Shown: in pieces, positions 1,997-49,354 of the stretch
How positions within the stretch are numbered: position 1 is the first letter of the stretch
Layout of the letters: each line of letters opens with the position of its first letter
Assembly: GCA_016185605.1 (NCBI GenBank)
Contig: JACPNG010000015.1
Span: 7,103-71,102 of the forward strand
Length of the DNA stretch: 64,000 nt
Direction of reading: 5' to 3'
Source: Candidatus Woesearchaeota archaeon
GTDB taxonomy: Archaea; Nanobdellota; Nanobdellia; SCGC-AAA011-G17; JACPNG01
Made by a program: the position numbers and the translations under genes
The notes under the pieces: model-generated
Told to the model about the DNA's origin: nothing
The model's database searches: none
What the model saw: only the letters and a program-made list of their open reading frames with translations

Positions 1997-3010
1997 TTAT
2001 GGAACTAATCTATCTCTACTATTTAAATGATTCCAGACTGTGGTTTTATTTATATTTAATTCTTTCCCTATCTTTTCATAACTTAGACCTTGATTCCTTA
2101 ATTCCATCATTTTATCCTTTAATTTTATCACTTCTCTATGCGGTTTTACCCATAACTTATAACTACTAACAATCTGTTTAAGCCTATCTTTTTTACGAAT
2201 AATTGTAAAGTTTATATATTTATCAAATAACTCAATAGATTTTCTATCTTGTACACTTAAGGTATAACTTGGCAATCTCGGTTTTTTATTCTTCTTAGAA
2301 TGTATTTTTGATTCAATACCAAAACCATTTAAGAGAGCTTTAACATCTTCTAGACCATTATTATTAATGGAAAAAGCCCTTATTCTTTTGCCCACTTCAT
2401 CTACATTGCCTTCAGAATCGAAAAAGCCTTTTATAAACTGAGATTGTATCTCTAAATCAGCTCTTTTTATTCTTTCAGGAACTCTCCACTTTTTAACTCC
2501 AAATTTGCCATAACATAACAGATTTTCACAGGCCTTTATTGAACATAATCTAGTTCTTGATTGATTATTCCAGTTACTGATTTTTGGGATATGAATTTCC
2601 TTGGTTGGATTGAGTCTATAAACTTGTGATAAACTATTTCTAAACTCATTAACAAATTCCTTATCTACAGCCGATAATCCAATCTGATATACTGATTTAT
2701 TAGAGTTATAGATTAAAAAACCATCACCACATAAAACCCCCAAGATATAAGCTTTCTCTAAACTAAGTTTCTTTGAAGAATTCGGAATTTGATTTTCAAA
2801 TATTCTAATTCTTCCACTTTGAACGCCTAACTTTGCAGCCTCTTTCCTCGAACGTCTCTTTATATTTAACTTATTAAGGTGATATATTATTATAGAATGA
2901 GATTTATTTAGTTTGCTTGCTATAGAACGAGTAGATTCTCCTTTCTGATAAAGTTGTTTAAATTGCTCTATTTCTTCTTTAGCGATTGGATGACCATTCA
3001 TTTTTTTCAA
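1997..3010 (-). CDS. free-standing LAGLIDADG homing-endonuclease-like protein with N- and C-terminal HTH domains
   Basis: 337 aa. Two LAGLIDADG-type motifs (LGVLCGDGFL and IKGFFDSEGNV). HTH-like segments at both ends (STRSIASKLNKSHSIIIYHL; LSYEKIGKELNINKTTVWNHL). Confidence 0.65.
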   Translation of the reverse strand: MKKMNGHPIAKEEIEQFKQLYQKGESTRSIASKLNKSHSIIIYHLNKLNIKRRSRKEAAKLGVQSGRIRIFENQIPNSSKKLSLEKAYILGVLCGDGFLIYNSNKSVYQIGLSAVDKEFVNEFRNSLSQVYRLNPTKEIHIPKISNWNNQSRTRLCSIKACENLLCYGKFGVKKWRVPERIKRADLEIQSQFIKGFFDSEGNVDEVGKRIRAFSINNNGLEDVKALLNGFGIESKIHSKKNKKPRLPSYTLSVQDRKSIELFDKYINFTIIRKKDRLKQIVSSYKLWVKPHREVIKLKDKMMELRNQGLSYEKIGKELNINKTTVWNHLNSRDRLVP

Positions 3011-6122: not shown

Positions 6123-7316
6123 TCAGAAAAACTCATTAAGCCTTTTTTGCTGCTTTAAATTTTTTAATAAAATGCTTTGGTTTAATATATAATCTGTCTT
6201 GAATTTTAATATCCTAAATATCAATTCTTTTGTTTTTTCTAAAAGAGCTTCTTTATTATCAAATATAACGGGCTCACTTACTAATGATTTTCTCGAAGCT
6301 TGTCTCACCACCCAGACTCCCAGACTAGCCCAGTATTCTGGAGTCTCAAACCTCAAAACTAAAACAGAAGCTTGCTTTCTAATGCTTTTTAGTTTTTCTA
6401 AAATCCCAAGCCTAGCTGCATAATAACCCCCGACAGTATTGGAAGCATATTTTTTTCTTCCAAAGCAATCCTCATAATCTGTTGACATAGCAATCTCATC
6501 GCTTTGGTTCCATGCGCTTTTTGGAAGATACATCTCAAATAATTCATAGCTGAATGTGTCTGGAAACATCATTATAAAATAATAATTTCCGAGATAATTT
6601 CCATAATATAATCTATATTCATCTATTGTGTTGTACTCTAAAATTTCATCTCTAATATTTTTCCCTATTGTGTCGTCTGTTGCTGTGATGCTCCATCTTG
6701 TAGGAACCAATTTTCTGTTTTTCTTTAATCCTAGATTTCCAATAGATAATAATTTCATCAGAAATGATTCGTCAAAATTATTATTATACAAATAATTTAT
6801 AGCTTCATTTGCCTTTAAGTCTGTGTCAGAAACAATTCTTTCAACTTTTGCATGAATCTTTGGATTTTCAGTTATAACTGCATTCTTTAATTCAGCTCTT
6901 GGCCCCATTGGCATGTTTATATTGTCATAATCCATCATCACATTAATCTTCTTTTTCAATTCAATTTCAACATCAACCGGCTTATAGGCCATTGCTATTT
7001 CCTGGGACATCTCAATAAATTTATTGGAATTTCTAACATTATAGATATTGGATTTAAATCTGGAGTTTATTAATCTGGCTCTTAAATTTAATATCTCCTT
7101 AATTGAGAATTCATTTTCAGCCCAGTATTTTTCTGAATCAAACATCCATGAATTATCAATTTTTTCAGGGGGGCTTAATATTCCAACATTTAAGTTAGGA
7201 TAAGTCTTTGAGCCTACAAATATAGAAGGAGGGCTATTTCCGGAAAATTGCCCCATTAAAATATTCTTGAACAAAGAATCATATTTTATTGATTTAGGAT
7301 CAAACTTCTTGTACAT
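6123..7316 (-). CDS. Nre-family (COG1602-like) archaeal DNA-repair-associated protein
   Basis: 397 aa. Motifs LVPTRWSITATDD and GGYYAARLGILE recall the archaeal NreA family. Confidence 0.45.
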   Translation of the reverse strand: MYKKFDPKSIKYDSLFKNILMGQFSGNSPPSIFVGSKTYPNLNVGILSPPEKIDNSWMFDSEKYWAENEFSIKEILNLRARLINSRFKSNIYNVRNSNKFIEMSQEIAMAYKPVDVEIELKKKINVMMDYDNINMPMGPRAELKNAVITENPKIHAKVERIVSDTDLKANEAINYLYNNNFDESFLMKLLSIGNLGLKKNRKLVPTRWSITATDDTIGKNIRDEILEYNTIDEYRLYYGNYLGNYYFIMMFPDTFSYELFEMYLPKSAWNQSDEIAMSTDYEDCFGRKKYASNTVGGYYAARLGILEKLKSIRKQASVLVLRFETPEYWASLGVWVVRQASRKSLVSEPVIFDNKEALLEKTKELIFRILKFKTDYILNQSILLKNLKQQKRLNEFF

Positions 7317-7400
7317 ATTCCATATATAATTTGTGGATTTTTAAAGATAATGTCAAACTTTTATAGAAAATCTTTTAAAGTTATACTATAATATATTATT

Positions 7401-20458: not shown

Positions 20459-20880
20459 TTCAAAATTACTTTATCTCCCAAGTTAATATTATTTTCTATT
20501 GCAAAATTATTATTTACCTCCAACACATATTTGGCTTTATCTTTTGGTTTATAGCTTATACATTCATCATCGCATGGAACAGCGTGTTTTATGTCCACAA
20601 TCTTTAAATTCTTAGAGATAAAAATCATATCCAATGGAATTAATGTATTCTTCATCCAGAAACTATGATAATCCTCATCTTCAAAAACAAACAGCATCCC
20701 GGAATTTTTATCTAGGCTTTCTCTGAACATTAATCCTTGTGTTCTTTCTGAGTCAGAATCTGCAATTTCAATATTAACTTTTATCTCATTATCTTCATTA
20801 TTAATTATCAGATAATCCTTATTAGCACAACCATTCATAAGTATTAATGGAACTAAAGCTATCAATAATAACATTTTCAT
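20455..20880 (-). CDS. DUF192 (COG1430-like) secreted protein
   Basis: 141 aa. ERTQGLMFRESL...MLFVFEDE...FWMKNTLIPLDMIF matches the DUF192 pattern. Stop overlaps the leuS start region (operon). Confidence 0.55.
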   Translation of the reverse strand: MKMLLLIALVPLILMNGCANKDYLIINNEDNEIKVNIEIADSDSERTQGLMFRESLDKNSGMLFVFEDEDYHSFWMKNTLIPLDMIFISKNLKIVDIKHAVPCDDECISYKPKDKAKYVLEVNNNFAIENNINLGDKVILK

Positions 20881-23800
20881 TCTAAAAATATTGCTGGTTT
20901 TCCAGGCTTGGCTTTTTTTGATTTATTTTCTGGATCATATTTATTCTTGTCAGAAACTGAATAAACAATAACATCCTTGTTTACTTTAATGCTCAATTCT
21001 TTAGAATTATAGTTATTAACTTCATTAGGCAGTGAATAAACATAAACCTTGCTGAATTCTTTTCCTTGTTTTTCTTTCATCACATTAATTACATTTGTTA
21101 TATCTGAAACCAAATTATTAAATGATTTTTCAGCCTGTTCAAATTTTATATCTATCTTAGATTCATCATATTCTGGCCATTTTTCCAGGCTCAGGAATTT
21201 TTTATTTCCAATTTTTTCCCATAACTCTTCTGTAATATGAGGACAAAATGGATGTATTAACTTAAGGAATTTCTCCAAATCTTTCTTGCTTATTTCATTT
21301 TCCAAGGAATCAAATAAATCCCTAATCTTAATAATTGCCAAGTTATACTTGAATTCTTCTATATCTTGAGTAACATCTTTTATTGTTTTGTTTAATTTAC
21401 TTTCAACCTTTCTGGATGTTTTTCCCATCTTCACATTTGAAACATAATCTATTAGCCTTCTGACAAATCTTAGGCTTCCATCTATGCCTTTAGAACTCCA
21501 TTCCATATCTTTGTCAGGAGCAGCCCCTGATATCAAGAATAATCTTGCTGTGTCTATCCCATATTCTTTTGATACAGCTTCTGGCAAGACAACATTGCCT
21601 CTGGATTTTGACATTACAAATCCGTCTTCCCCGTGCAACATTCCTTGGTTGAATAACTTGATGAAAGGCTCATCAATATTTACATATCCCATATTCCTAA
21701 GGGCTTTAGTAAAAAATCTTGCATAAATTAAATGCATACAGGCATGCTCTGCCCCCCCAATATACTGGTCAACAGGCATCCAATAGTTTGTTTTCATAGT
21801 ATCAAATGGTTTCTTATTATTTTTATTATCGCAATATCTTAAGAAGTACCAAGAAGAATCAAAGAAAGTGTCCATTGTATCTGTTTCTCTTTTAGCATTC
21901 TTTTTGCATCTAGGGCATTTTACATTTAAAAATTTTTTATTTGTTGTTAATGGGTTTCCTTTTCCAAATTTAACCTTGTCTGGAAGTTTTACAGGAAGAT
22001 CTTTTTCTTGAACTGGAATAATTCCGCAAGAATCACAATAAATTATTGGAATCGGAGTCCCCCAATATCTTTGTCTTGAGATTAGCCAGTCCCTTAATTT
22101 GTAATTAACAGTTAACTTTCCTATTTTTTTATTTTCTAATTCTTTGGTTATCTTTATCTTGGCTTCTTCTGAATTTAGTCCATTGAACTTTTCAGAATTA
22201 GTTAGAATACCTTCATCAACATATGCCTCTTGTGTACAATTCAACATTCTCAGAGCATGTTTATGAGTAGTTGGTGTCAAAAATTTCTCAAGCTCCTTTA
22301 AGTTAAGCCATTTTATTTCATGGATCTCCTTTTCAGCTTCTGAAATATTTTTTTGCTTGCTATTTTGCAATTCAAAATAAAGAACGTGTGCATGAGCAAA
22401 TCTATTTATCTTTTTAGGCACATGATAAAATCTTCCATGCACTCTGCCAAAATCTTTAATTAATTTAGGATTTAAATATCCAGTTTCTTCTTCAATTTCT
22501 ATCTTGGCTGCTTCTTCTGGAGTTTGGTTTTTTTCTATTCCACCAGTAATGAAAGTTCCCCAAACAACTTTTTTCCATTTTAATCCTATATATTTTTCTT
22601 CAGACCAGTGTTTTACAATAGCAATAATTGCATCTCTATGATCAAATGGTAAACCATCAACAATCTTACCTGGTTCTGTATCTTGACTATAAACTGGCTC
22701 TATTACATTCACTATTTTAAGATTGTACTTCTTTGCAAACTCAAAATCTCTTTGGTCATGAGCTGGAACTGCCATTACCATCCCAGAGCCATATTCAGCA
22801 ATGACAAAATTTCCTGCATAAACTGGAATTTTTTGATTTGTTAATGGATGTAATGCATAACTCCCTGTAAACACCCCTTCTTTATCCAACTTTTCTATAT
22901 CTTCTTTTTTTGTTGATTTTATTTTTCTTAAGAAATTATCAACCTCTTTCTTCTGTTCTTTTGTTACAATCTCATGAAGCCTTGGATGCTGGGCGGAAAT
23001 AACCATAAAAGTTACCCCAAATAAAGTATCTGGACGAGTAGTAAATATTTTCCATTTTCTAAATAATAAATTTAAGACTTCCTCTTCCTTTTCTCCATTA
23101 TAATGTGTCTTATTTCCCATTGCAGTGATAATTTGTGCTTCTAATTTATTAGCTATTTCCATGGGTTGATTAATAGGAACAATATGATCATTTTTATCTA
23201 CAAGAATAAATATTTGTCTAACATTCTCCTTAATTTTATTAAAATCAAACTTCCAATCACAATAATTTGATAGGGCAGGTCTAGGTTTGTTATCAATGAA
23301 AGCTTTGCCGGAGATAATTCTTTCTTTTGTTGGAAGTGGAGGAGCAACCATTATTAATTTGCCTATCTTTATTCTCCCAGATGAGAGTAATTTCATCATC
23401 AAAATATTTCCAAGAGAATGTCCTATTACTATGCTGTTCTCATTAAAATTATAATTATTTAAAACAAACTCTGATTGTTCTTTATACTGCGGATTATTTG
23501 TATTTGGCAAATCAGGAGAAAATGATACTCTTCCACCCTTATTTTCAATTTCTTTTCTTAACCACAACCAAAAAGCATCTTTAGAACTATCTCCATATGC
23601 ATGAAGAAAAACAAACTCTTTATCTTTTACATCTTCAAATATTTCAAATTCAATCTCAGTTCCATAGCTTTTTCCAATCCAGTTCTCCTGCATTATTTTT
23701 ATTCTTTCAGACCATTGTAATTTTTCTATATCTTTCAAAAGCTCATCTGCATATTTTGTTGTCTTGATGAACCATTGTTCTAATTGTTTTGTCTCAACAT

Positions 23801-24347
23801 CTGTATCTTTATGACGCCAGCATTTTCCGTTATGGACTTGCTCATTTGCCAATACAGTATCGCATTTAGAGCACCAGTTAACACTTGCTTTTGATTTATA
23901 CACTAATCCATTCTCCAAGAATTTCAAAAAGAAATACTGGTTCCATTTATAGTATTCTGGAGTATGAGTCATTAATAACCTATCCCAGTCATAACTTAAT
24001 CCAAGCTCTTTTTGCTGCCTTATAAAATTTTTAATGGAATTCTCTGTGAATTTCTTTGGATGCTCTTTGGCTAGAATAGCTGCATTCTCTGCTGGAAGTC
24101 CAAATGAATCATATCCCATTGGATATAATACATTAAATCCCATCATCCTTTTAAATCTTGAATAAATATCTCCAATAGTATAGTTAAATGCATGACCCAT
24201 ATGCAGTCCAGAGCCAGAAGGATATGGAAACATCTCAAGAACATAGAATTTTTTCTTATTATTCTCTTTAACTTTGAATACTTTTTTCTGTTCCCATCTC
24301 TTCTGCCATTTCTTTTCTATTTTGCTGAAATCAACCATTATATTCAT
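20877..24347 (-). CDS. leuS: leucyl-tRNA synthetase (archaeal type) with two extra hydrolase-like domains inserted around the CP1 editing domain
   Basis: 1156 aa. HMGH (HIGH) and VMSKS (KMSKS) motifs, NWIGKSYG, TTRPDT and AVPAHDQRDFEFA editing motifs. About 195 extra aa with a GHSLG nucleophile elbow between WIGKS and TTRPDT (approx. nt 23058..23642). About 145 extra aa with a Nudix-box-like GGIEKNQTPEEAAKIEIEEETG after the editing core (approx. nt 22233..22670). Confidence 0.85.
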   Translation of the reverse strand: MNIMVDFSKIEKKWQKRWEQKKVFKVKENNKKKFYVLEMFPYPSGSGLHMGHAFNYTIGDIYSRFKRMMGFNVLYPMGYDSFGLPAENAAILAKEHPKKFTENSIKNFIRQQKELGLSYDWDRLLMTHTPEYYKWNQYFFLKFLENGLVYKSKASVNWCSKCDTVLANEQVHNGKCWRHKDTDVETKQLEQWFIKTTKYADELLKDIEKLQWSERIKIMQENWIGKSYGTEIEFEIFEDVKDKEFVFLHAYGDSSKDAFWLWLRKEIENKGGRVSFSPDLPNTNNPQYKEQSEFVLNNYNFNENSIVIGHSLGNILMMKLLSSGRIKIGKLIMVAPPLPTKERIISGKAFIDNKPRPALSNYCDWKFDFNKIKENVRQIFILVDKNDHIVPINQPMEIANKLEAQIITAMGNKTHYNGEKEEEVLNLLFRKWKIFTTRPDTLFGVTFMVISAQHPRLHEIVTKEQKKEVDNFLRKIKSTKKEDIEKLDKEGVFTGSYALHPLTNQKIPVYAGNFVIAEYGSGMVMAVPAHDQRDFEFAKKYNLKIVNVIEPVYSQDTEPGKIVDGLPFDHRDAIIAIVKHWSEEKYIGLKWKKVVWGTFITGGIEKNQTPEEAAKIEIEEETGYLNPKLIKDFGRVHGRFYHVPKKINRFAHAHVLYFELQNSKQKNISEAEKEIHEIKWLNLKELEKFLTPTTHKHALRMLNCTQEAYVDEGILTNSEKFNGLNSEEAKIKITKELENKKIGKLTVNYKLRDWLISRQRYWGTPIPIIYCDSCGIIPVQEKDLPVKLPDKVKFGKGNPLTTNKKFLNVKCPRCKKNAKRETDTMDTFFDSSWYFLRYCDNKNNKKPFDTMKTNYWMPVDQYIGGAEHACMHLIYARFFTKALRNMGYVNIDEPFIKLFNQGMLHGEDGFVMSKSRGNVVLPEAVSKEYGIDTARLFLISGAAPDKDMEWSSKGIDGSLRFVRRLIDYVSNVKMGKTSRKVESKLNKTIKDVTQDIEEFKYNLAIIKIRDLFDSLENEISKKDLEKFLKLIHPFCPHITEELWEKIGNKKFLSLEKWPEYDESKIDIKFEQAEKSFNNLVSDITNVINVMKEKQGKEFSKVYVYSLPNEVNNYNSKELSIKVNKDVIVYSVSDKNKYDPENKSKKAKPGKPAIFLE

Positions 24348-24379: not shown

Positions 24380-24392
24380 GCTTTAAAAACAA
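24380..24392 (+). promoter_or_regulatory. candidate archaeal TATA/BRE element for tRNA-Arg
   Basis: tttaaaaa centred about 27 nt upstream of the mature tRNA 5' end. Confidence 0.3.
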
Positions 24393-24414: not shown

Positions 24415-24501
24415 GGGCCTGTAACTCAGTTTGGATAGAGTGTCAGCCTTCTAAACAATGAAGTGAGCTGAAAGTCCGGGGTTCAAATCCTCGCAGGCCC
24501 G
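24415..24501 (+). tRNA. tRNA-Arg (anticodon UCU) with a short (about 12-nt) intron adjacent to the anticodon loop
   Basis: Acceptor GGGCCTG/CAGGCCC. D-arm ACTC-AGTTTGGATA-GAGT. Anticodon stem TCAGC/GCTGA with loop CTTCTAA plus inserted acaatgaagtga (CTTC/GAAG pairing suggests a relaxed BHB). T-arm CGGGG-TTCAAAT-CCTCG. No encoded CCA. Confidence 0.75.
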
Positions 24502-24550
24502 CTCTTAGAATACAAAAGATATAAAAATCAGAAGAATTCTTTCAATCCAT

Positions 24551-24657
24551 GCGCAGGTGCCCAAGCGGTCTAAGGGGACCGATCATCTTATGATGAGTCC
24601 AAGCTGCAAAATATTGTAGACCCCGGTTTATCGCAGGTTCGAATCCTGCCCTGCGCT
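24551..24657 (+). tRNA. tRNA gene with about 35-nt insertion, isotype unresolved (class-II-like D-arm)
   Basis: Perfect 7-bp acceptor GCGCAGG/CCTGCGC. T-arm GCAGG-TTCGAAT-CCTGC. D-arm CCC-AAGCGGTCTAAG-GGG (Leu/Ser-like). The region between the D- and T-arms is about 60 nt and contains the hairpin TCATC-TTAT-GATGA. The anticodon could not be fixed by eye. Confidence 0.6.
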
Positions 24658-46763: not shown

Positions 46764-47861
46764 ATGAAATCGTGGCATATCTGGGATTTTCCGGATAATA
46801 TTTATATCTCTCTAAAAAGACAGGCTCATAAAGAATTTTTCAGAGAAATGTTTATAGAGTATGGGGGAAAAAGAGCGTATGCTAGATTCTTAGGTTTATC
46901 ACAAACCGCTGTAAAACAGCATTGGAGAGGTTACAGCAAAAAAGGCGGAAGATTATACACACAGTGTATACCTCTCTGGGTTCTAAAAAAATCTTGTAAA
47001 ACAAATAGACTTAAAAGAAAAATCGAGAATAATATAAATCTAATAAAAGGGTCAAATAAATCAAATCCAATAACAAACCCAAAATTGCCAATAGAAGAGA
47101 ATCCAGAATTGTATAGAATAACTGCACATATGATAGCAGATGGTAGTGCGCCTAGAAATAAGGTTCCTTATTATTCAAATACTTCAAAAGTTTTAAGGGA
47201 ACAATTTAAGAAGGATTTAAAGATATTTGGAAAGATGAGAGTTTATGACTCTAAATTAACAATTCCTATTGTTTACTTTCCAAAAATATTAACTGATATA
47301 TTGTCCCATATACTTAATGTGAGATTTTCTTTCCCAAATAGACTACCAAGTGAAACTTTCAAAGCTACAGAAGAATGTAAAAGAGCATTTTTACAGGCTT
47401 TATTTGATGACGAAGGTTATATATCAACCGGTCTATGCATAAGTATGTCTAATTTAAAGGTAATAAAACAGATAAAAAAATTATTAAAAGCTATAGAAGT
47501 AGAAACCAATAAAATAGGGATAAAAAGGCAAAAATATAGGAAGAATAATTTTATCATAAATGTGAAAAAAAAGCACTATAAAAGATTTGATGAAAAAGTT
47601 GGATTTTCCCATCCAGAGAAATCTAGAAATTTAAAATTTGCATTAAAGACTCTTAATAGAAAAATAAGAACAAGAGACCCATATATAATTAAAGAAGAAA
47701 TTTTAAAATATTTAAGAAGAAAACCTATGAAAACTTTAGAATTAGCTAATAACATACAACTTAGTTTAGGACATTGTTTAAGACACTTAAAAAGCATTGA
47801 AAAGATGGGTGATATAGAAAGAACTGGATTTAAAAATAAGATAATTTGGTATCTTCCCTAA
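46764..47861 (+). CDS. free-standing LAGLIDADG homing-endonuclease-like protein with flanking HTH domains (second copy of this architecture)
   Basis: 365 aa. LAGLIDADG-type motifs ITAHMIADGSA and LQALFDDEGYIS. C-terminal wHTH-like region. Confidence 0.65.
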   Translation: MKSWHIWDFPDNIYISLKRQAHKEFFREMFIEYGGKRAYARFLGLSQTAVKQHWRGYSKKGGRLYTQCIPLWVLKKSCKTNRLKRKIENNINLIKGSNKSNPITNPKLPIEENPELYRITAHMIADGSAPRNKVPYYSNTSKVLREQFKKDLKIFGKMRVYDSKLTIPIVYFPKILTDILSHILNVRFSFPNRLPSETFKATEECKRAFLQALFDDEGYISTGLCISMSNLKVIKQIKKLLKAIEVETNKIGIKRQKYRKNNFIINVKKKHYKRFDEKVGFSHPEKSRNLKFALKTLNRKIRTRDPYIIKEEILKYLRRKPMKTLELANNIQLSLGHCLRHLKSIEKMGDIERTGFKNKIIWYLP

Positions 47862-48421
47862 GGTCTTACCCATTCCACATTGTAATAAGTAACATCATTC
47901 TCATCATCAACAATGCCTATTAATAATCTCTTTCTTGTGCTATGAGCAACTCTATTCTTAGCTGAGAATTCATACCAAGTGGACACACTAGCTTCATGGA
48001 CAGGATATAAAATCCATTTCGCATGATCATCTCCAGGCTTGACTCCCCTGTCATAAACCCTGAAATCAGCCCCAAATTTTAGAGCAGTTTTTACTATATA
48101 GCCCCTATTTCTCATATCCCTAAATACAACATACCTTATCCAGAAATTTGGCTCTACTTCTCGAGCCTTTTTAATAAAATCATCGGCATTAATCTTCTTA
48201 TTTTTATTATCTAGAATATCCATTCTCTTTTTTTCTAATAAATATAAGGCTTCTACCAAAGAATAATAGAATTTTCCCTCCTGCAATTCGCCAAACTTGC
48301 TTTGGTTATGGAGTTCCCTAGATTCATTATTCTCTTCGGCCACAACTTTTTCATTAGAGAATATAGCGCTTATTTTATTTGTTATTTCCTTGGGTTTTTC
48401 CTTTTTCTCTGCCATAGCCAA
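47858..48421 (-). CDS. endA: tRNA-splicing endonuclease (EndA)
   Basis: 187 aa. GYIVKTALKFGADFRVY...HAKWILYP...VAHSTRKRLLIG catalytic-domain motifs. Confidence 0.75.
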   Translation of the reverse strand: MAMAEKKEKPKEITNKISAIFSNEKVVAEENNESRELHNQSKFGELQEGKFYYSLVEALYLLEKKRMDILDNKNKKINADDFIKKAREVEPNFWIRYVVFRDMRNRGYIVKTALKFGADFRVYDRGVKPGDDHAKWILYPVHEASVSTWYEFSAKNRVAHSTRKRLLIGIVDDENDVTYYNVEWVRP

Positions 48422-48463
48422 TTTAATAAAAAACTATTTAAAAAGCTTGTCATTAAATATGAG

Positions 48464-49354
48464 ATGGAACTGATATTTTTAGGAACTAGCTCAATGATAC
48501 CGACTGAGGACAGAAATCACTTTTCTAATTTATTATTGTACAAAGATGAGGGAATATTGGTTGACTGCGGGGAAAATACTCAAAGACAATTAAGGATAGC
48601 AAAAATCCCAGTCACAAAAATTACAAAAATACTAATAACTCACTGGCATGGCGACCATGTTCTGGGATTGCCCGGAGTATTGCAAAGTTTGGAAAAGCAC
48701 CAGTATAATAAAAGTCTAGAAATATACGGGCCAAAAGGATCTAAAAAATATTTTAGCCATATGTTCAGGGGATTTGATTATAGAATAAAAATAAAATACA
48801 AGTTAGTTGAAGTTAATAAAAGAATCTTCTTCAAAAATAATGATTTTAGTCTAGAGGCGTTAAAACTAGACCATAGCATTCCTTGCTTGGGATATTCATT
48901 TATAGAAAATGATAGAAGAAAGATTAATATGGAATATCTGAAAAAATTTAGTCTAAAATCCCATCCAATTATAAAAAAATTACAGCAAGGCAAAGATATA
49001 ATCTGGAAGGGCAAAAAAATTAAAGCTAAATTATCCACAAGCTTAAAAGAAGGCAAGAAAATAGCATTCATAACAGACACAAGAGTATGCGATAATATAC
49101 TGAAATTGACAAAAAACTCAGATATTATTGTTTCTGAAGCCACATTTAGGGAGGATTTCGAGGAGAAAGCTAAATTATATAAACACTTAACCACAAAACA
49201 GGCGGCATTAATAGCAAAAAAATCAACTGCAAAAAGATTAATCTTAACTCATTTCAGCCAGAGATATAAAGATTTAGAAGAATTGAAGAAAGAGGCTTCT
49301 AAAATATTTTATAATGTTTATATAGCAGAGGATTTTATGAGGATATCACTTTAA
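48464..49354 (+). CDS. rnz: ribonuclease Z (tRNA 3' endonuclease, metallo-beta-lactamase fold)
   Basis: Track ORF starts at 48302 with an implausible hydrophobic leader. The real start is probably MELIFLGTSS at 48464. ITHWHGDH motif. Confidence 0.8.
   Translation: MELIFLGTSSMIPTEDRNHFSNLLLYKDEGILVDCGENTQRQLRIAKIPVTKITKILITHWHGDHVLGLPGVLQSLEKHQYNKSLEIYGPKGSKKYFSHMFRGFDYRIKIKYKLVEVNKRIFFKNNDFSLEALKLDHSIPCLGYSFIENDRRKINMEYLKKFSLKSHPIIKKLQQGKDIIWKGKKIKAKLSTSLKEGKKIAFITDTRVCDNILKLTKNSDIIVSEATFREDFEEKAKLYKHLTTKQAALIAKKSTAKRLILTHFSQRYKDLEELKKEASKIFYNVYIAEDFMRISL

What the first reader, a model, noticed from the sequence alone, without database searches (positions are those of the whole stretch)
24551..24657. 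Second tRNA of the Arg-tRNA cluster has about 35 nt of extra sequence and an unassignable anticodon
The acceptor stem (7 bp, perfect), the T-arm and a class-II-like D-arm are clear. The about 60 nt between D- and T-arms cannot be folded by eye into a standard anticodon arm plus canonical 37/38 intron. It contains a tight hairpin TCATC-TTAT-GATGA, a flanking GGAC/GTCC helix with a 3-nt bulge (BHB-like half motif) and a second hairpin CTGCAA-AATA-TTGTAG that could be a long variable arm. It may be a Leu or Ser isoacceptor with a non-canonical intron, or a multi-intron tRNA. The neighbouring tRNA-Arg(UCU) (24415..24501) also has a short 12-nt intron.
Basis: seen in the sequence. Interest (0 to 1): 0.5.

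Follow-up and report, generated by a model that had tools for sequence, protein, structure and literature searches.

The report
Two-intron archaeal tRNA-Cys gene
The odd 107-base tRNA-like gene is a cysteine tRNA (anticodon GCA) of a Woesearchaeota archaeon, interrupted by two short protein-spliced introns, one in the anticodon stem and one at the usual site; this is a known kind of gene structure, but standard tRNA finders miss it or mis-call it.

Summary
The unassignable anticodon is resolved. Window 24551-24657 (+) encodes tRNA-Cys(GCA) with discriminator U73 and two bulge-helix-bulge (BHB) introns. One is 21 nt, at 24582-24602, between tRNA positions 30/31. The other is 12 nt, at 24610-24621, at the canonical 37/38 site. 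A blind search for BHB-bounded introns that leave a legal anticodon arm returns only this solution; 5 of 3000 shuffles give any. Relatives supply the natural controls: the same gene occurs intronless, with only the 37/38 intron, with only the 30/31 intron, or with both, and the junctions are exactly as predicted. The intron-1 BHB covaries across five lineages, and all four pairs of its central helix change on both sides. A splicing endonuclease gene (EndA) lies in the same window. It is not a Leu/Ser class II tRNA. ARAGORN's intron mode gives a false Val(CAC) call, and Rfam scores the locus below threshold. Multi-intron archaeal tRNAs and the 30/31 site are already published, so this is a new member of a known kind. 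Two side leads came up: a LAGLIDADG endonuclease gene sits just upstream of tRNA-Cys in five related lineages, and one relative has a four-intron tRNA-Cys.

The parts
24551..24657 (+). tRNA-Cys(GCA) gene: 107 nt, 74 nt after removal of both introns, ending in discriminator U73. No CCA is encoded.
   Evidence: The in-silico spliced product is called tRNA-Cys(gca) by ARAGORN with score 120.2, and its minimum-free-energy fold is a cloverleaf. The blind BHB search gives this as the only solution. Orthologues.
24551..24581 (+). Exon 1, tRNA positions 1-30: acceptor 5' strand, D-arm, and ACCG of the anticodon stem.
   Evidence: It is contiguous with exon 2 in orthologues L004/L005, L010, L084, L103 and L095.
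24582..24602 (+). Intron 1: 21 nt, at the non-canonical position 30/31 in the anticodon stem. The BHB has a central helix GGAC (24576-79) / GTCC (24597-24600), a 5' bulge CG^A (24580-82), an inner hairpin TCATC-TTAT-GATGA (24583-96) and a 3' bulge AA^G (24601-03).
   Evidence: It is the only BHB in the gene with an all-Watson-Crick central helix and an inner helix of at least 4 bp. BHB table. Covariation across five lineages: central helix 4/4 pairs changed on both sides and 100% paired. The intron is absent from L004/L005 and from the intronless orthologues, at exactly this junction.
24603..24609 (+). Exon 2, tRNA positions 31-37: G31 plus C32 U33 G34 C35 A36 A37. The anticodon GCA is at 24606-24608.
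   Evidence: GCTGCAA is invariant in six of the eight orthologues of the alignment.
24610..24621 (+). Intron 2: 12 nt, at the canonical position 37/38. It is a relaxed bulge-helix-loop. The central helix is CTGC (24604-07) / GTAG (24616-19) with one G-U pair, the 3' bulge is AC^C (24620-22), and the 5' bulge is merged into an 8-nt loop.
   Evidence: ARAGORN finds exactly this intron once intron 1 has been removed. BHB table. The intron is absent from L007/L024 and from the intronless orthologues, where CTGCAAC is contiguous. The neighbouring tRNA-Arg intron has the same 1+5+4+2 layout.
24622..24657 (+). Exon 3, tRNA positions 38-73: C38, CCGGT of the anticodon stem, variable loop TTATC, T-arm, acceptor 3' strand and U73.
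24520..24527 (+). TATAAAAA, an archaeal TATA-box-like element centred about 27 nt upstream of the gene. This is inference from the sequence only.
   Evidence: Read from the sequence. A similar TTTAAAAA at 24382-24389 lies about 29 nt upstream of tRNA-Arg, and that element is conserved in L004 and L007.
24415..24501 (+). Neighbouring tRNA-Arg(UCU), with a 12-nt canonical 37/38 intron at 24454-24465 (central helix CTTC/GAAG).
   Evidence: Rfam 55.6 bits. ARAGORN intron mode. BHB table.
47858..48421 (-). tRNA splicing endonuclease EndA, alpha-type, up to 187 aa (start codon uncertain). It is the enzyme expected to excise both introns and lies 23 kb from the gene.
   Evidence: Pfam tRNA_int_endo 94.8 bits and tRNA_int_endo_N 45.4 bits. 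The best matches among solved structures are the N. equitans alpha subunit 3IEY_A (1e-35) and M. jannaschii alpha4 1A79 (1e-33, full length). tblastn.

Best explanation
Window 24551-24657 (+) is a functional tRNA-Cys(GCA) gene of a Candidatus Woesearchaeota (DPANN) archaeon, split by two protein-spliced (BHB-type) introns. Intron 1 (21 nt, 24582-24602) lies between positions 30 and 31 in the 5' strand of the anticodon stem. Intron 2 (12 nt, 24610-24621) lies at the canonical 37/38 site.

Shown here: the sequence anatomy, the uniqueness of the solution, the natural presence/absence variants in relatives, and the covariation.

Inferred mechanism: in the precursor, exon nucleotides 25-28 (GGAC) pair with the 3' end of intron 1 (GTCC). 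This forms a textbook BHB: a 4-bp helix flanked by two 3-nt bulges, with a 5-bp inner hairpin. The archaeal splicing endonuclease encoded in the same window cuts in both bulges, after G30 and after the intronic AA. An RtcB-type ligase then joins the ends. That creates the G31-C39 pair and completes the ACCGG/CCGGU anticodon stem.

The completed stem is the outer helix of the second, relaxed motif, in which anticodon-loop nucleotides 32-35 (CUGC) pair with GUAG of intron 2. Intron 2 is then cut after A37 and before C38. Splicing intron 1 before intron 2 is the simplest order, but it has not been shown.

RNase P, RNase Z and the CCA-adding enzyme finish the 74-nt tRNA. Its GCA anticodon and U73 are the classical cysteine identity elements.
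For: (1) Rfam aligns the D-arm, an ACCG/CGGT anticodon stem, a 5-nt variable loop and the T-arm, with a 42-nt insertion where 9 nt belong.

(2) Removing 24582-24602 and 24610-24621 gives a 74-nt sequence that ARAGORN calls tRNA-Cys(gca) with score 120.2. Removing intron 1 alone lets ARAGORN find intron 2 by itself. The spliced sequence folds into a cloverleaf by minimum free energy.

(3) A blind search requires a 4-bp central helix with 3-nt bulges for each intron. After splicing it also requires a 5-bp stem, a 7-nt loop with U33 and R37, and a 4-5-nt variable loop. It returns only this solution; 5 of 3000 shuffles give any.

(4) Natural controls exist in syntenic or orthologous loci. L004/L005 carry only the 37/38 intron. 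L007/L024 carry only the 30/31 intron. L022/L076/L097 carry both. L010, L084, L103 and L095 carry none. Exon junctions are exactly as predicted. The intronless and 37/38-only versions score 59-67 bits on Rfam's tRNA model.

(5) In the spliced alignment of eight orthologues, all 160 cells form a standard pair and five pairs change on both sides. These include three anticodon-stem pairs, one of them the 31:39 pair, whose G31 lies just 3' of intron 1 and whose C39 lies one nucleotide beyond the 3' end of intron 2.

(6) The intron-1 BHB across five lineages has central helices GGAC/GTCC, GGAU/GUCC, GGAG/CUCU, CAGU/GCUG and CAAC/GUUG. All four pairs change on both sides and all cells are paired. 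Three of the five inner-helix pairs change on both sides. The bulges CG^A and AA^N are invariant.

(7) The BHB-1 conformer is only 2.4 kcal/mol above the minimum free energy (-37.6 against -40.0).

(8) An EndA gene is in the window.

(9) The discriminator is U in all tRNA-Cys orthologues. The bacterial tRNA-Tyr genes that share the same T-arm and acceptor have A.

(10) The literature lists 30/31 as a known non-canonical archaeal intron site, often combined with a canonical intron (PMC4090602). It also reports disrupted tRNA genes in DPANN lineages, and tRNA genes of Woesearchaeota and Pacearchaeota genomes were predicted in that study (PMC5829648).
Against: - There are no RNA data, so splicing, its order and aminoacylation are all inferred.
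- The unspliced locus is below Rfam's threshold (18.8 against 29 bits). That is expected with a stem-internal intron.
- The outer helix of BHB-1 is only 2 bp (G-C, G-U). Forming the central helix needs the 10:25 D-stem pair and part of the anticodon stem to open.
- Intron 2 is a relaxed bulge-helix-loop with a G-U pair. In two relatives the equivalent central helix has a G-A mismatch.
- The window's EndA aligns to M. jannaschii alpha4 without an obvious extra loop in the region aligned. Alpha4 enzymes are described as strict for canonical BHBs (PMC5829648). I could not tell whether it has the DPANN 'L3' loop or a beta partner.
- ARAGORN scores alone cannot single out this solution: many arbitrary double deletions score as well.
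- I could not check whether the genome has another tRNA-Cys gene.
Confidence: 0.9

Rival explanations
1. It is tRNA-Val(CAC) with a single 35-nt intron (24586-24620) inserted inside the anticodon between positions 34 and 35, as ARAGORN's intron mode reports.
For: ARAGORN -i calls this at 24551-24657 with score 104.4.
Against: There is no BHB at these junctions. The central helix CCGA/TTGT has a mismatch, there is no outer helix, and the interior is a 26-nt unstructured loop.

The resulting anticodon loop AUCACCC has A32 and a pyrimidine at position 37. Position 26 is missing and the stem starts with a G-U pair.

The score is lower than for the Cys solution (104.4 against 120.2).

Orthologues with the same acceptor, T-arm and U73 are plainly Cys(GCA), with or without introns, and none can be read as Val.

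The blind BHB search does not return this solution.
Confidence: 0.01
2. It is a class II tRNA (Leu or Ser) whose long variable arm is the CTGCAA-AATA-TTGTAG hairpin, with one non-canonical intron.
For: The D-stem is 3 bp and the D-loop is long, which resembles class II D-arms. In the exhaustive deletion scan, some deletions give Leu or Ser calls with scores of 114-117.
Against: Those Leu/Ser solutions need arbitrary deletions without BHB motifs.

The hairpin disappears in L007/L024 and in the intronless orthologues, where the sequence reads ...G CTGCAAC CCGNT..., an ordinary anticodon loop.

All orthologues have a variable region of 5 nt (L095: 6 nt) and the same 3-bp D-stem.

The discriminator is U73, whereas Leu, Ser and Tyr tRNAs with this acceptor carry A73.
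Confidence: 0.01
3. It is a decaying tRNA-Cys pseudogene: the insertions are junk that is not removed, and another gene supplies tRNA-Cys.
For: Standard detectors fail on it. The rest of the genome could not be inspected. In one relative (L022) the neighbouring tRNA-Arg has acceptor-stem mismatches.
Against: All four stems of the spliced product are perfect, and they are maintained by compensatory changes among orthologues.

Both introns keep splice motifs. The intron-1 BHB is maintained by compensatory changes between exon and intron in five lineages. Neutral decay would not do that.

TATA-like and T-rich flanks are present.

The splicing enzyme is encoded nearby.
Confidence: 0.05

Closest known systems
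Multiple-intron tRNA genes of Crenarchaeota, especially Thermoproteales (Sugahara et al. 2007/2008; Fujishima et al. 2010; reviewed in PMC4033280 and PMC4090602)
   Same: Both have two or more short BHB introns in one tRNA gene, one canonical (37/38) plus non-canonical ones. Position 30/31 is explicitly listed among known sites (PMC4090602). Introns come and go between close relatives. Standard detectors miss such genes.
   Different: The host is a DPANN (Woesearchaeota) archaeon with about 30% G+C, not a crenarchaeon. Its EndA looks like a single alpha-type subunit rather than the (alpha-beta)2 enzyme with the crenarchaeal loop. The introns are very short (12 and 21 nt).
Methanopyrus kandleri pre-tRNA-Glu(UUC), with one canonical and one non-canonical intron (PMC5829648)
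   Same: It is a two-intron archaeal pre-tRNA processed by EndA, with one intron at 37/38 and one elsewhere. It is the experimentally studied model for ordered removal.
   Different: There the second intron is in the D-loop (20b/21) with a relaxed HBh' motif, and the canonical intron is removed first. Here the non-canonical intron has the stricter BHB and lies in the anticodon stem, so removing it first would complete the helix that the canonical intron needs. This is inference.
Disrupted tRNA genes of DPANN archaea: ARMAN-1/2 with the epsilon2 EndA (PMC3239211), and alpha4 EndAs with the 'L3' loop in DPANN lineages (PMC5829648; that study also predicted tRNA genes for a Woesearchaeota and a Pacearchaeota genome)
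   Same: The superphylum is the same. The reported link between DPANN EndAs and increased tRNA gene disruption also applies, as does the remark that tRNA sets in these genomes are incompletely predicted.
   Different: The text I read gives no gene-level description of this tRNA-Cys or of a 30/31 intron in it. I could not establish whether the window's EndA has the L3 loop.
Split tRNA-Lys(CUU) of Nanoarchaeum equitans and Staphylothermus, split at 30/31 (cited in PMC4090602)
   Same: The discontinuity is at the same position, 30/31, and a BHB is formed by exon and flanking sequence.
   Different: Those are two separate genes joined in trans. Here there is one gene with a cis intron.

Membership tests
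tRNA (Rfam RF00005, cloverleaf) | Score at or above the family's gathering threshold (29 bits) on the genomic sequence | tested here: not met
   The unspliced locus scores 18.8 bits. A 21-nt insertion inside a stem explains this. The intronless and 37/38-only orthologues score 59-67 bits. The tool cannot score a spliced sequence.
tRNA (Rfam RF00005, cloverleaf) | Four-stem cloverleaf with a 7-nt anticodon loop, U33, a purine at 37, a T-loop of the TTCGAAT type, and stems supported by covariation | tested here: met
   The spliced product is called by ARAGORN with score 120.2 and its minimum-free-energy fold is a cloverleaf. Across eight orthologues 100% of cells are paired and five pairs change on both sides.
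tRNA-Cys isoacceptor | Anticodon GCA and discriminator U73 (classical CysRS identity elements; from established knowledge) | tested here: met
   G34 C35 A36 are at 24606-24608 and U73 is at 24657. All orthologues share both features.
tRNA-Cys isoacceptor | Charged with cysteine in vivo | not testable with these tools
   This needs biochemistry or tRNA sequencing with a charging assay.
Archaeal BHB (protein-spliced) intron | Two 3-nt bulges on opposite strands, separated by a 4-bp helix and flanked by helices, with the splice sites in the bulges | tested here: met
   Intron 1: GGAC/GTCC, bulges CG^A and AA^G, a 5-bp inner helix and a 2-bp outer helix. Covariation in five lineages.
Archaeal BHB (protein-spliced) intron | The same motif for the second intron | tested here: inconclusive
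   Intron 2 has a 4-bp central helix CTGC/GTAG with one G-U pair, a 3' bulge AC^C, and an outer helix that is complete only once intron 1 is gone. Its 5' bulge is merged into an 8-nt loop, so it is the relaxed bulge-helix-loop form. The position (37/38) and the orthologue junctions still support it.
Archaeal BHB (protein-spliced) intron | A splicing endonuclease (EndA) encoded by the organism | tested here: met
   The ORF at window 47858-48421 (-) matches both Pfam EndA domains and is closest to the solved archaeal EndA structures 3IEY_A and 1A79.
Archaeal BHB (protein-spliced) intron | Excision and exon ligation observed in RNA | not testable with these tools
   No transcript data are available.
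Class II tRNA (Leu/Ser/Tyr type) | A long variable arm (a stem-loop of more than 10 nt between the anticodon arm and the T-arm) | tested here: not met
   The variable region is 5 nt, TTATC. The candidate hairpin is the anticodon loop plus intron 2, and it is absent in L007/L024 and in the intronless orthologues.
Self-splicing (group I/II) tRNA intron | A ribozyme core of more than 200 nt, or an Rfam intron-family match | tested here: not met
   The insertions are 21 and 12 nt. No Rfam intron family matched, even at E<=10.

The most novel reading that the evidence does not exclude
The introns of this tRNA-Cys may be footprints of a contest with a free-standing LAGLIDADG homing endonuclease that lives immediately upstream of tRNA-Cys in related Woesearchaeota.

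In five endonuclease lineages (44-100% identical proteins) the gene sits directly 5' of tRNA-Cys(GCA), usually between tRNA-Arg(UCU) and tRNA-Cys. Four of those five tRNA-Cys genes carry the 30/31 intron, and one carries four introns. Among endonuclease-free loci only the window does (1 of 6).

Two strains whose flanks are 92-97% identical differ by presence of the endonuclease gene, by the introns in both flanking tRNAs, and by about 20% of the tRNA-Cys 5' two-thirds. That is what a co-conversion tract would look like.

On this reading the endonuclease targets the intact tRNA gene, stem-disrupting BHB introns protect the resident allele, and gene conversion spreads introns together with the endonuclease gene. 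That would be a DNA-level mechanism for gain of short archaeal tRNA introns, which reviews still call unknown. The window would be an allele that kept the introns after losing the endonuclease gene.
Probability: 0.12. Interest if true: 0.65.

Novelty: new member of a known kind. Interest (0 to 1): 0.3.

Why it matters
For annotation, without this call the genome appears to lack tRNA-Cys, or gains a spurious tRNA-Val(CAC). Default ARAGORN and Rfam/Infernal miss every version of the gene that carries the 30/31 intron, in the window and in relatives. This fits the published remark that tRNA sets of DPANN genomes are incompletely predicted (PMC5829648).

For biology, the value lies in the set of natural variants. 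Intronless, 37/38-only, 30/31-only, two-intron and four-intron versions of one tRNA gene occur among related Woesearchaeota. Exon and intron covary in the BHB. The organism appears to have a simple alpha-type EndA. This is a compact system for testing the substrate range of DPANN splicing endonucleases and the order of intron removal. Through the adjacent LAGLIDADG gene it may also show how short archaeal tRNA introns are gained and lost.

Tried and rejected
- **Spliced-product score as sole criterion.** I ran ARAGORN on 530,357 distinct single or double deletions. Because the acceptor, D and T arms are constant, many arbitrary deletions score 114-125 (His, Ile, Lys, Leu and others). I rejected the score as a discriminator.
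- **A 4-bp central helix alone as the BHB criterion.** It gives 78 candidates, against about 64 in shuffles, so it is too loose. Only the stricter motif, or the combination with anticodon-arm legality, is informative.
- **ARAGORN intron mode.** It gives Val(CAC) with a 35-nt intron. I rejected this (see the rival explanations).
- **Exact look-up of the window's LeuRS.** It was not on record, although the same protein is in the homology database as MBI2667762.1.
- **Synteny through more distant LeuRS homologues** (P0003, P0005, P0006, P0012, P0017). Either there were no tRNAs next to LeuRS, or the contig ended too early.
- **The metagenome scan with the 3' exon.** It mostly returned bacterial tRNA-Tyr(GTA) genes that share the T-arm and acceptor by coincidence. 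These have discriminator A and were set aside.
- **tblastn of the LAGLIDADG protein against the window.** No copy was found.
- **Solved-structure search with the LAGLIDADG protein.** It found no significant match; the only two hits had E-values of 0.4-0.6.
Full report
**1. What is in the sequence**

The region 24551-24657 begins with GCGCAGG and ends with CCTGCGC followed by T. That is a perfect 7-bp acceptor stem plus a discriminator.

The T-arm GCAGG-TTCGAAT-CCTGC and a 3-bp D-stem (CCC/GGG) with a long D-loop are also there.

ARAGORN without intron search finds nothing here. Rfam at its curated threshold reports only the neighbouring tRNA-Arg(UCU) at 24415-24501, which has a 12-nt insertion in the anticodon loop.

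At a permissive threshold Rfam's tRNA model matches 24558-24649 with 18.8 bits, below the 29-bit cut-off. It aligns the D-arm, an ACCG/CGGT anticodon stem, a 5-nt variable loop (UUAUC) and the T-arm. It leaves 42 nt where the last stem pair and the 7-nt loop (9 nt) belong. This points to a class I tRNA with 33 extra nucleotides in the anticodon arm.

**2. Solving the anticodon arm**

Archaeal protein-spliced introns are bounded by a bulge-helix-bulge (BHB) motif: a 4-bp helix with a 3-nt bulge on each strand. The cuts fall after the second nucleotide of each bulge (established knowledge; PMC5829648, PMC4090602).

*Intron 1.* GGAC (24576-79) pairs with GTCC (24597-24600). It is followed by the bulge CG^A (24580-82), the 5-bp hairpin TCATC-TTAT-GATGA, and, after GTCC, the bulge AA^G (24601-03). 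This defines a 21-nt intron at 24582-24602, between tRNA positions 30 and 31.

*Intron 2.* CTGC (24604-07) pairs with GTAG (24616-19). The 3' bulge is AC^C (24620-22) and the flanking nucleotides are AA^A. This defines a 12-nt intron at 24610-24621, after position 37. It has the same 1+5+4+2 layout as the 12-nt intron of the neighbouring tRNA-Arg.

Removing both introns gives GCGCAGGTGCCCAAGCGGTCTAAGGGGACCG|GCTGCAA|CCCGGTTTATCGCAGGTTCGAATCCTGCCCTGCGCT. This is 74 nt, with anticodon arm ACCGG-CUGCAAC-CCGGU, anticodon GCA and U73.

ARAGORN calls this tRNA-Cys(gca) with score 120.2. If only intron 1 is removed, ARAGORN's intron mode finds intron 2 on its own. The spliced sequence folds into a cloverleaf by minimum free energy. 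The precursor conformer with BHB-1 enforced lies only 2.4 kcal/mol above the unconstrained minimum.

**3. Is the solution unique, and better than chance?**

ARAGORN scores alone do not decide. Among 530,357 distinct single or double deletions, many arbitrary ones score 114-125 with other anticodons, because three of the four arms are constant. A 4-bp central helix alone is also too loose: 78 candidates, against about 64 in shuffles.

The combined test is decisive. Every intron must have a 4-bp central helix with at most one G-U pair, plus 3-nt bulges. The product must have a 5-bp stem, a 7-nt loop with U33 and R37, and a 4-5-nt variable loop. This returns exactly one solution, the one above. 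Only 5 of 3000 dinucleotide-preserving shuffles of the interior yield any solution.

ARAGORN's own intron mode proposes tRNA-Val(cac) with one 35-nt intron inside the anticodon (score 104.4). That call has no BHB, a mismatched central helix, A32, and C at position 37. I reject it.

**4. Relatives provide natural controls**

The adjacent LeuRS gene (20877-24347, minus strand) is identical to MBI2667762.1 of a Candidatus Woesearchaeota archaeon.

Contigs carrying its closest homologues are syntenic.

- In L004/L005 (GCA_016185615.1) tRNA-Arg is intronless and tRNA-Cys reads ...GGCAATCGGCTGCAA|ATAATAGAAGAA|CCCGATT.... There is no insertion at 30/31, only a 12-nt intron at 37/38.
- In L007 (and L024) tRNA-Cys reads ...GGGGAGCG|ACACTTATGGCTCTAA|GCTGCAACCCGCT.... 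There is a 16-nt intron at 30/31 and an uninterrupted anticodon loop.

A metagenome scan with the shared 3' exon mostly returned bacterial tRNA-Tyr genes with A73. It also returned four intronless tRNA-Cys(GCA) genes (L010, L084, L103, L095) and a second two-intron version (L022/L076/L097).

Each predicted junction of the window gene is therefore seen as contiguous sequence in some relative. Rfam scores the intronless and 37/38-only genes at 59-67 bits, but it misses every gene that carries the 30/31 intron.

**5. Covariation**

In the alignment of the eight spliced or intronless sequences, all 160 cells of the cloverleaf form a standard pair. Five pairs change on both sides, two in the D-stem and three in the anticodon stem. 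One of these is the 31:39 pair, which only forms once both introns are out.

For the intron-1 BHB, two further lineages found later (L117, L123) bring the set to five. The central helix reads GGAC/GTCC, GGAT/GTCC, GGAG/CTCT, CAGT/GCTG and CAAC/GTTG. All four pairs change on both sides and all cells are paired. Three of the five inner-helix pairs also change on both sides. The bulges CG^A and AA^N never vary. Sliding the partner strand destroys the signal.

Exon nucleotides 25-28 and the 3' end of the intron co-evolve. That is what selection for endonuclease recognition predicts and what a decaying pseudogene does not.

**6. Machinery and mechanism**

The window encodes an alpha-type splicing endonuclease at 47858-48421 (minus strand). 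It matches both Pfam EndA domains and is closest to the N. equitans alpha subunit and the M. jannaschii alpha4 enzyme. A metallo-beta-lactamase ORF lies beside it. Its match to the tRNase Z family is weak and below that family's cut-off.

The most likely course of events is inferred as follows.

1. Transcription starts from a TATA-like box at 24520-24527.
2. The alternative conformer forms, in which 25-28 pair with the intron.
3. EndA cuts in both bulges of BHB-1, and the exons are ligated.
4. This completes the anticodon stem, which is the outer helix of the relaxed bulge-helix-loop motif of intron 2.
5. Intron 2 is then removed, followed by end processing and CCA addition.

Before intron 1 is removed, the outer helix of intron 2 is 1 bp. 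Afterwards it is the full stem. This is why I favour that order. For M. kandleri pre-tRNA-Glu the canonical intron goes first (PMC5829648), so the order is open.

There is an unresolved point. The window's EndA shows no obvious insertion relative to M. jannaschii alpha4 in the aligned region. Strict alpha4 enzymes are reported not to cut relaxed motifs, although DPANN alpha4 enzymes with an 'L3' loop are associated with disrupted tRNAs (PMC5829648).

**7. Comparison with what is known**

Multiple-intron tRNAs are well documented in Thermoproteales and other archaea. Position 30/31 is explicitly listed among the non-canonical sites, often combined with a canonical intron (PMC4090602, PMC4033280). 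DPANN genomes, including a Woesearchaeota and a Pacearchaeota genome, have been surveyed for disrupted tRNAs (PMC5829648).

The gene meets the defining features of a tRNA after splicing, of tRNA-Cys (GCA, U73) and of BHB introns (strict for intron 1, relaxed for intron 2). It fails the class II test because it has no long variable arm. It is a new member of a known kind, not a new kind.

**8. Side leads**

(a) In L007/L024 and in L022/L076/L097 a 226-229-aa two-domain LAGLIDADG protein is encoded between tRNA-Arg and tRNA-Cys. It passes Pfam's LAGLIDADG_3 threshold. In L007 its stop codon abuts the tRNA-Cys 5' end. The two lineages' proteins are 47% identical.

Homologues form about 50 clusters in Woesearchaeota, Nanoarchaeota and Diapherotrites. 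In the four further contexts I could fetch, the gene is again next to tRNA genes:

- L117-L122: tRNA-Arg - endonuclease - tRNA-Cys.
- L123-L125: tRNA-Arg - endonuclease - tRNA-Cys.
- L126-L130: endonuclease - tRNA-Cys - CysRS.
- L131: other intron-containing tRNAs on both sides.

Four of the five endonuclease-linked tRNA-Cys genes carry the 30/31 intron, against one of six endonuclease-free ones (the window). By my count, Fisher's one-sided p is about 0.07. The lineages are not independent and the sampling is biased.

(b) L004 and L007 have flanks that are 92-97% identical. They differ by the endonuclease gene, by the introns of both tRNAs, and by about 20% of the 5' two-thirds of tRNA-Cys. 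This looks like allele replacement.

(c) The L117 tRNA-Cys is 147 nt. It has four BHB-bounded insertions, at 15/16, 30/31, 37/38 and 59/60. Three of the four central helices are fully paired; the 37/38 one has a mismatch. The spliced product is 72 nt and ARAGORN calls it Cys(gca) with score 122.2. Published summaries give three as the maximum number of introns in an archaeal tRNA gene (PMC8450103, PMC4033280).

These leads motivate the speculative reading given under the novel case. They do not change the verdict on the finding.

**9. Verdict**

The best explanation is a functional tRNA-Cys(GCA) gene with a 21-nt BHB intron at 30/31 and a 12-nt intron at 37/38, at confidence 0.9. It is a new member of a known kind. 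Interest is modest (0.3), raised a little by the clean set of natural variants and the endonuclease association.

Noticed in passing
L007 8449-9138 (-), L024, L022/L076/L097, L117-L122 (1501-2190), L123-L125, L126-L130, L131; not present in the window: A family of free-standing two-domain LAGLIDADG proteins (about 210-260 aa) is encoded directly upstream of tRNA-Cys(GCA), usually between tRNA-Arg(UCU) and tRNA-Cys, in five protein lineages that are 44-100% identical. A sixth lineage (L131, Diapherotrites) lies between other intron-containing tRNAs. Four of the five linked tRNA-Cys genes carry the 30/31 intron.
   Followed up: partly
L117 about 2206-2352 (+), and the same in L118-L122: This tRNA-Cys(GCA) gene is 147 nt with four BHB-bounded introns: 15/16 (18 nt), 30/31 (31 nt, containing a 9-nt tandem duplication GAATAGCTG), 37/38 (14 nt) and 59/60 (12 nt). 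The spliced product is 72 nt with ARAGORN score 122.2. Published summaries give three as the maximum for archaeal tRNAs. The neighbouring tRNA-Arg has a near-identical 12-nt intron at 59/60.
   Followed up: partly
L004 versus L007, the region from tRNA-Arg to tRNA-Cys: The two contigs are 92-97% identical in their flanks. They differ by presence of the LAGLIDADG gene, by introns in both tRNAs (Arg 0 versus 2; Cys 37/38-only versus 30/31-only), and by about 20% of the tRNA-Cys 5' two-thirds. This looks like a recent allele replacement or conversion tract.
   Followed up: partly
window 20877-24347 (-): The leucyl-tRNA synthetase is 1156 aa and carries an inserted serine-hydrolase domain (residues about 248-418) and a NUDIX domain (about 578-696). 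Homologues in Woesearchaeota, Pacearchaeota and Nanoarchaeota carry none, one or both inserts (lengths 810-1210 aa).
   Followed up: no
window 46764-49354: A 365-aa LAGLIDADG_3 plus winged-helix ORF (46764-47861, +) lies tail-to-tail with the EndA gene (47858-48421, -). A metallo-beta-lactamase ORF (48302-49354, +) lies divergently beside EndA; its match to the tRNase Z family is weak and below the curated cut-off.
   Followed up: partly
L007 9229-9344 (-): Here tRNA-Arg(UCU) has two introns: a 28-nt intron at 28/29 in the anticodon stem (central helix AGCG/CGCT) and a 12-nt intron at 37/38. The orthologue in L004 is intronless, and the window's has only the 37/38 intron.
   Followed up: yes
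L103 about 6900-7230 and L095 about 700-750: Upstream of the intronless tRNA-Cys there are one or two partial copies of its 5' end (GCGCAGG), each followed by a hairpin (for example GCGCAGGTGGAGAGATCAAGAGCATCTCAGTACCTGC). In L103 there is also a partial copy of the 3' end (AATCCTGCCCTGCGCTC) downstream. The meaning is unknown.
   Followed up: no
L022 about 7267-7360 (-): The tRNA-Arg(UCU) upstream of the LAGLIDADG gene has a D-loop insertion and two mismatches in the acceptor stem (GGGCCTG against CAGACCA). It may be decaying or edited.
   Followed up: no
L107 14481-14609 (+): A 129-nt tRNA-like gene has the same acceptor and T-arm but A73. It reads by eye as an archaeal tRNA-Leu(CAA) with a long intron and a long variable arm.
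   Followed up: no
L019, L053, L081, L083: The same T-arm plus acceptor 3' strand (discriminator G) occurs with no matching 5' acceptor strand within 400 nt upstream. It could be a tmRNA-like 3' end, or a split or permuted tRNA. This was not examined.
   Followed up: no
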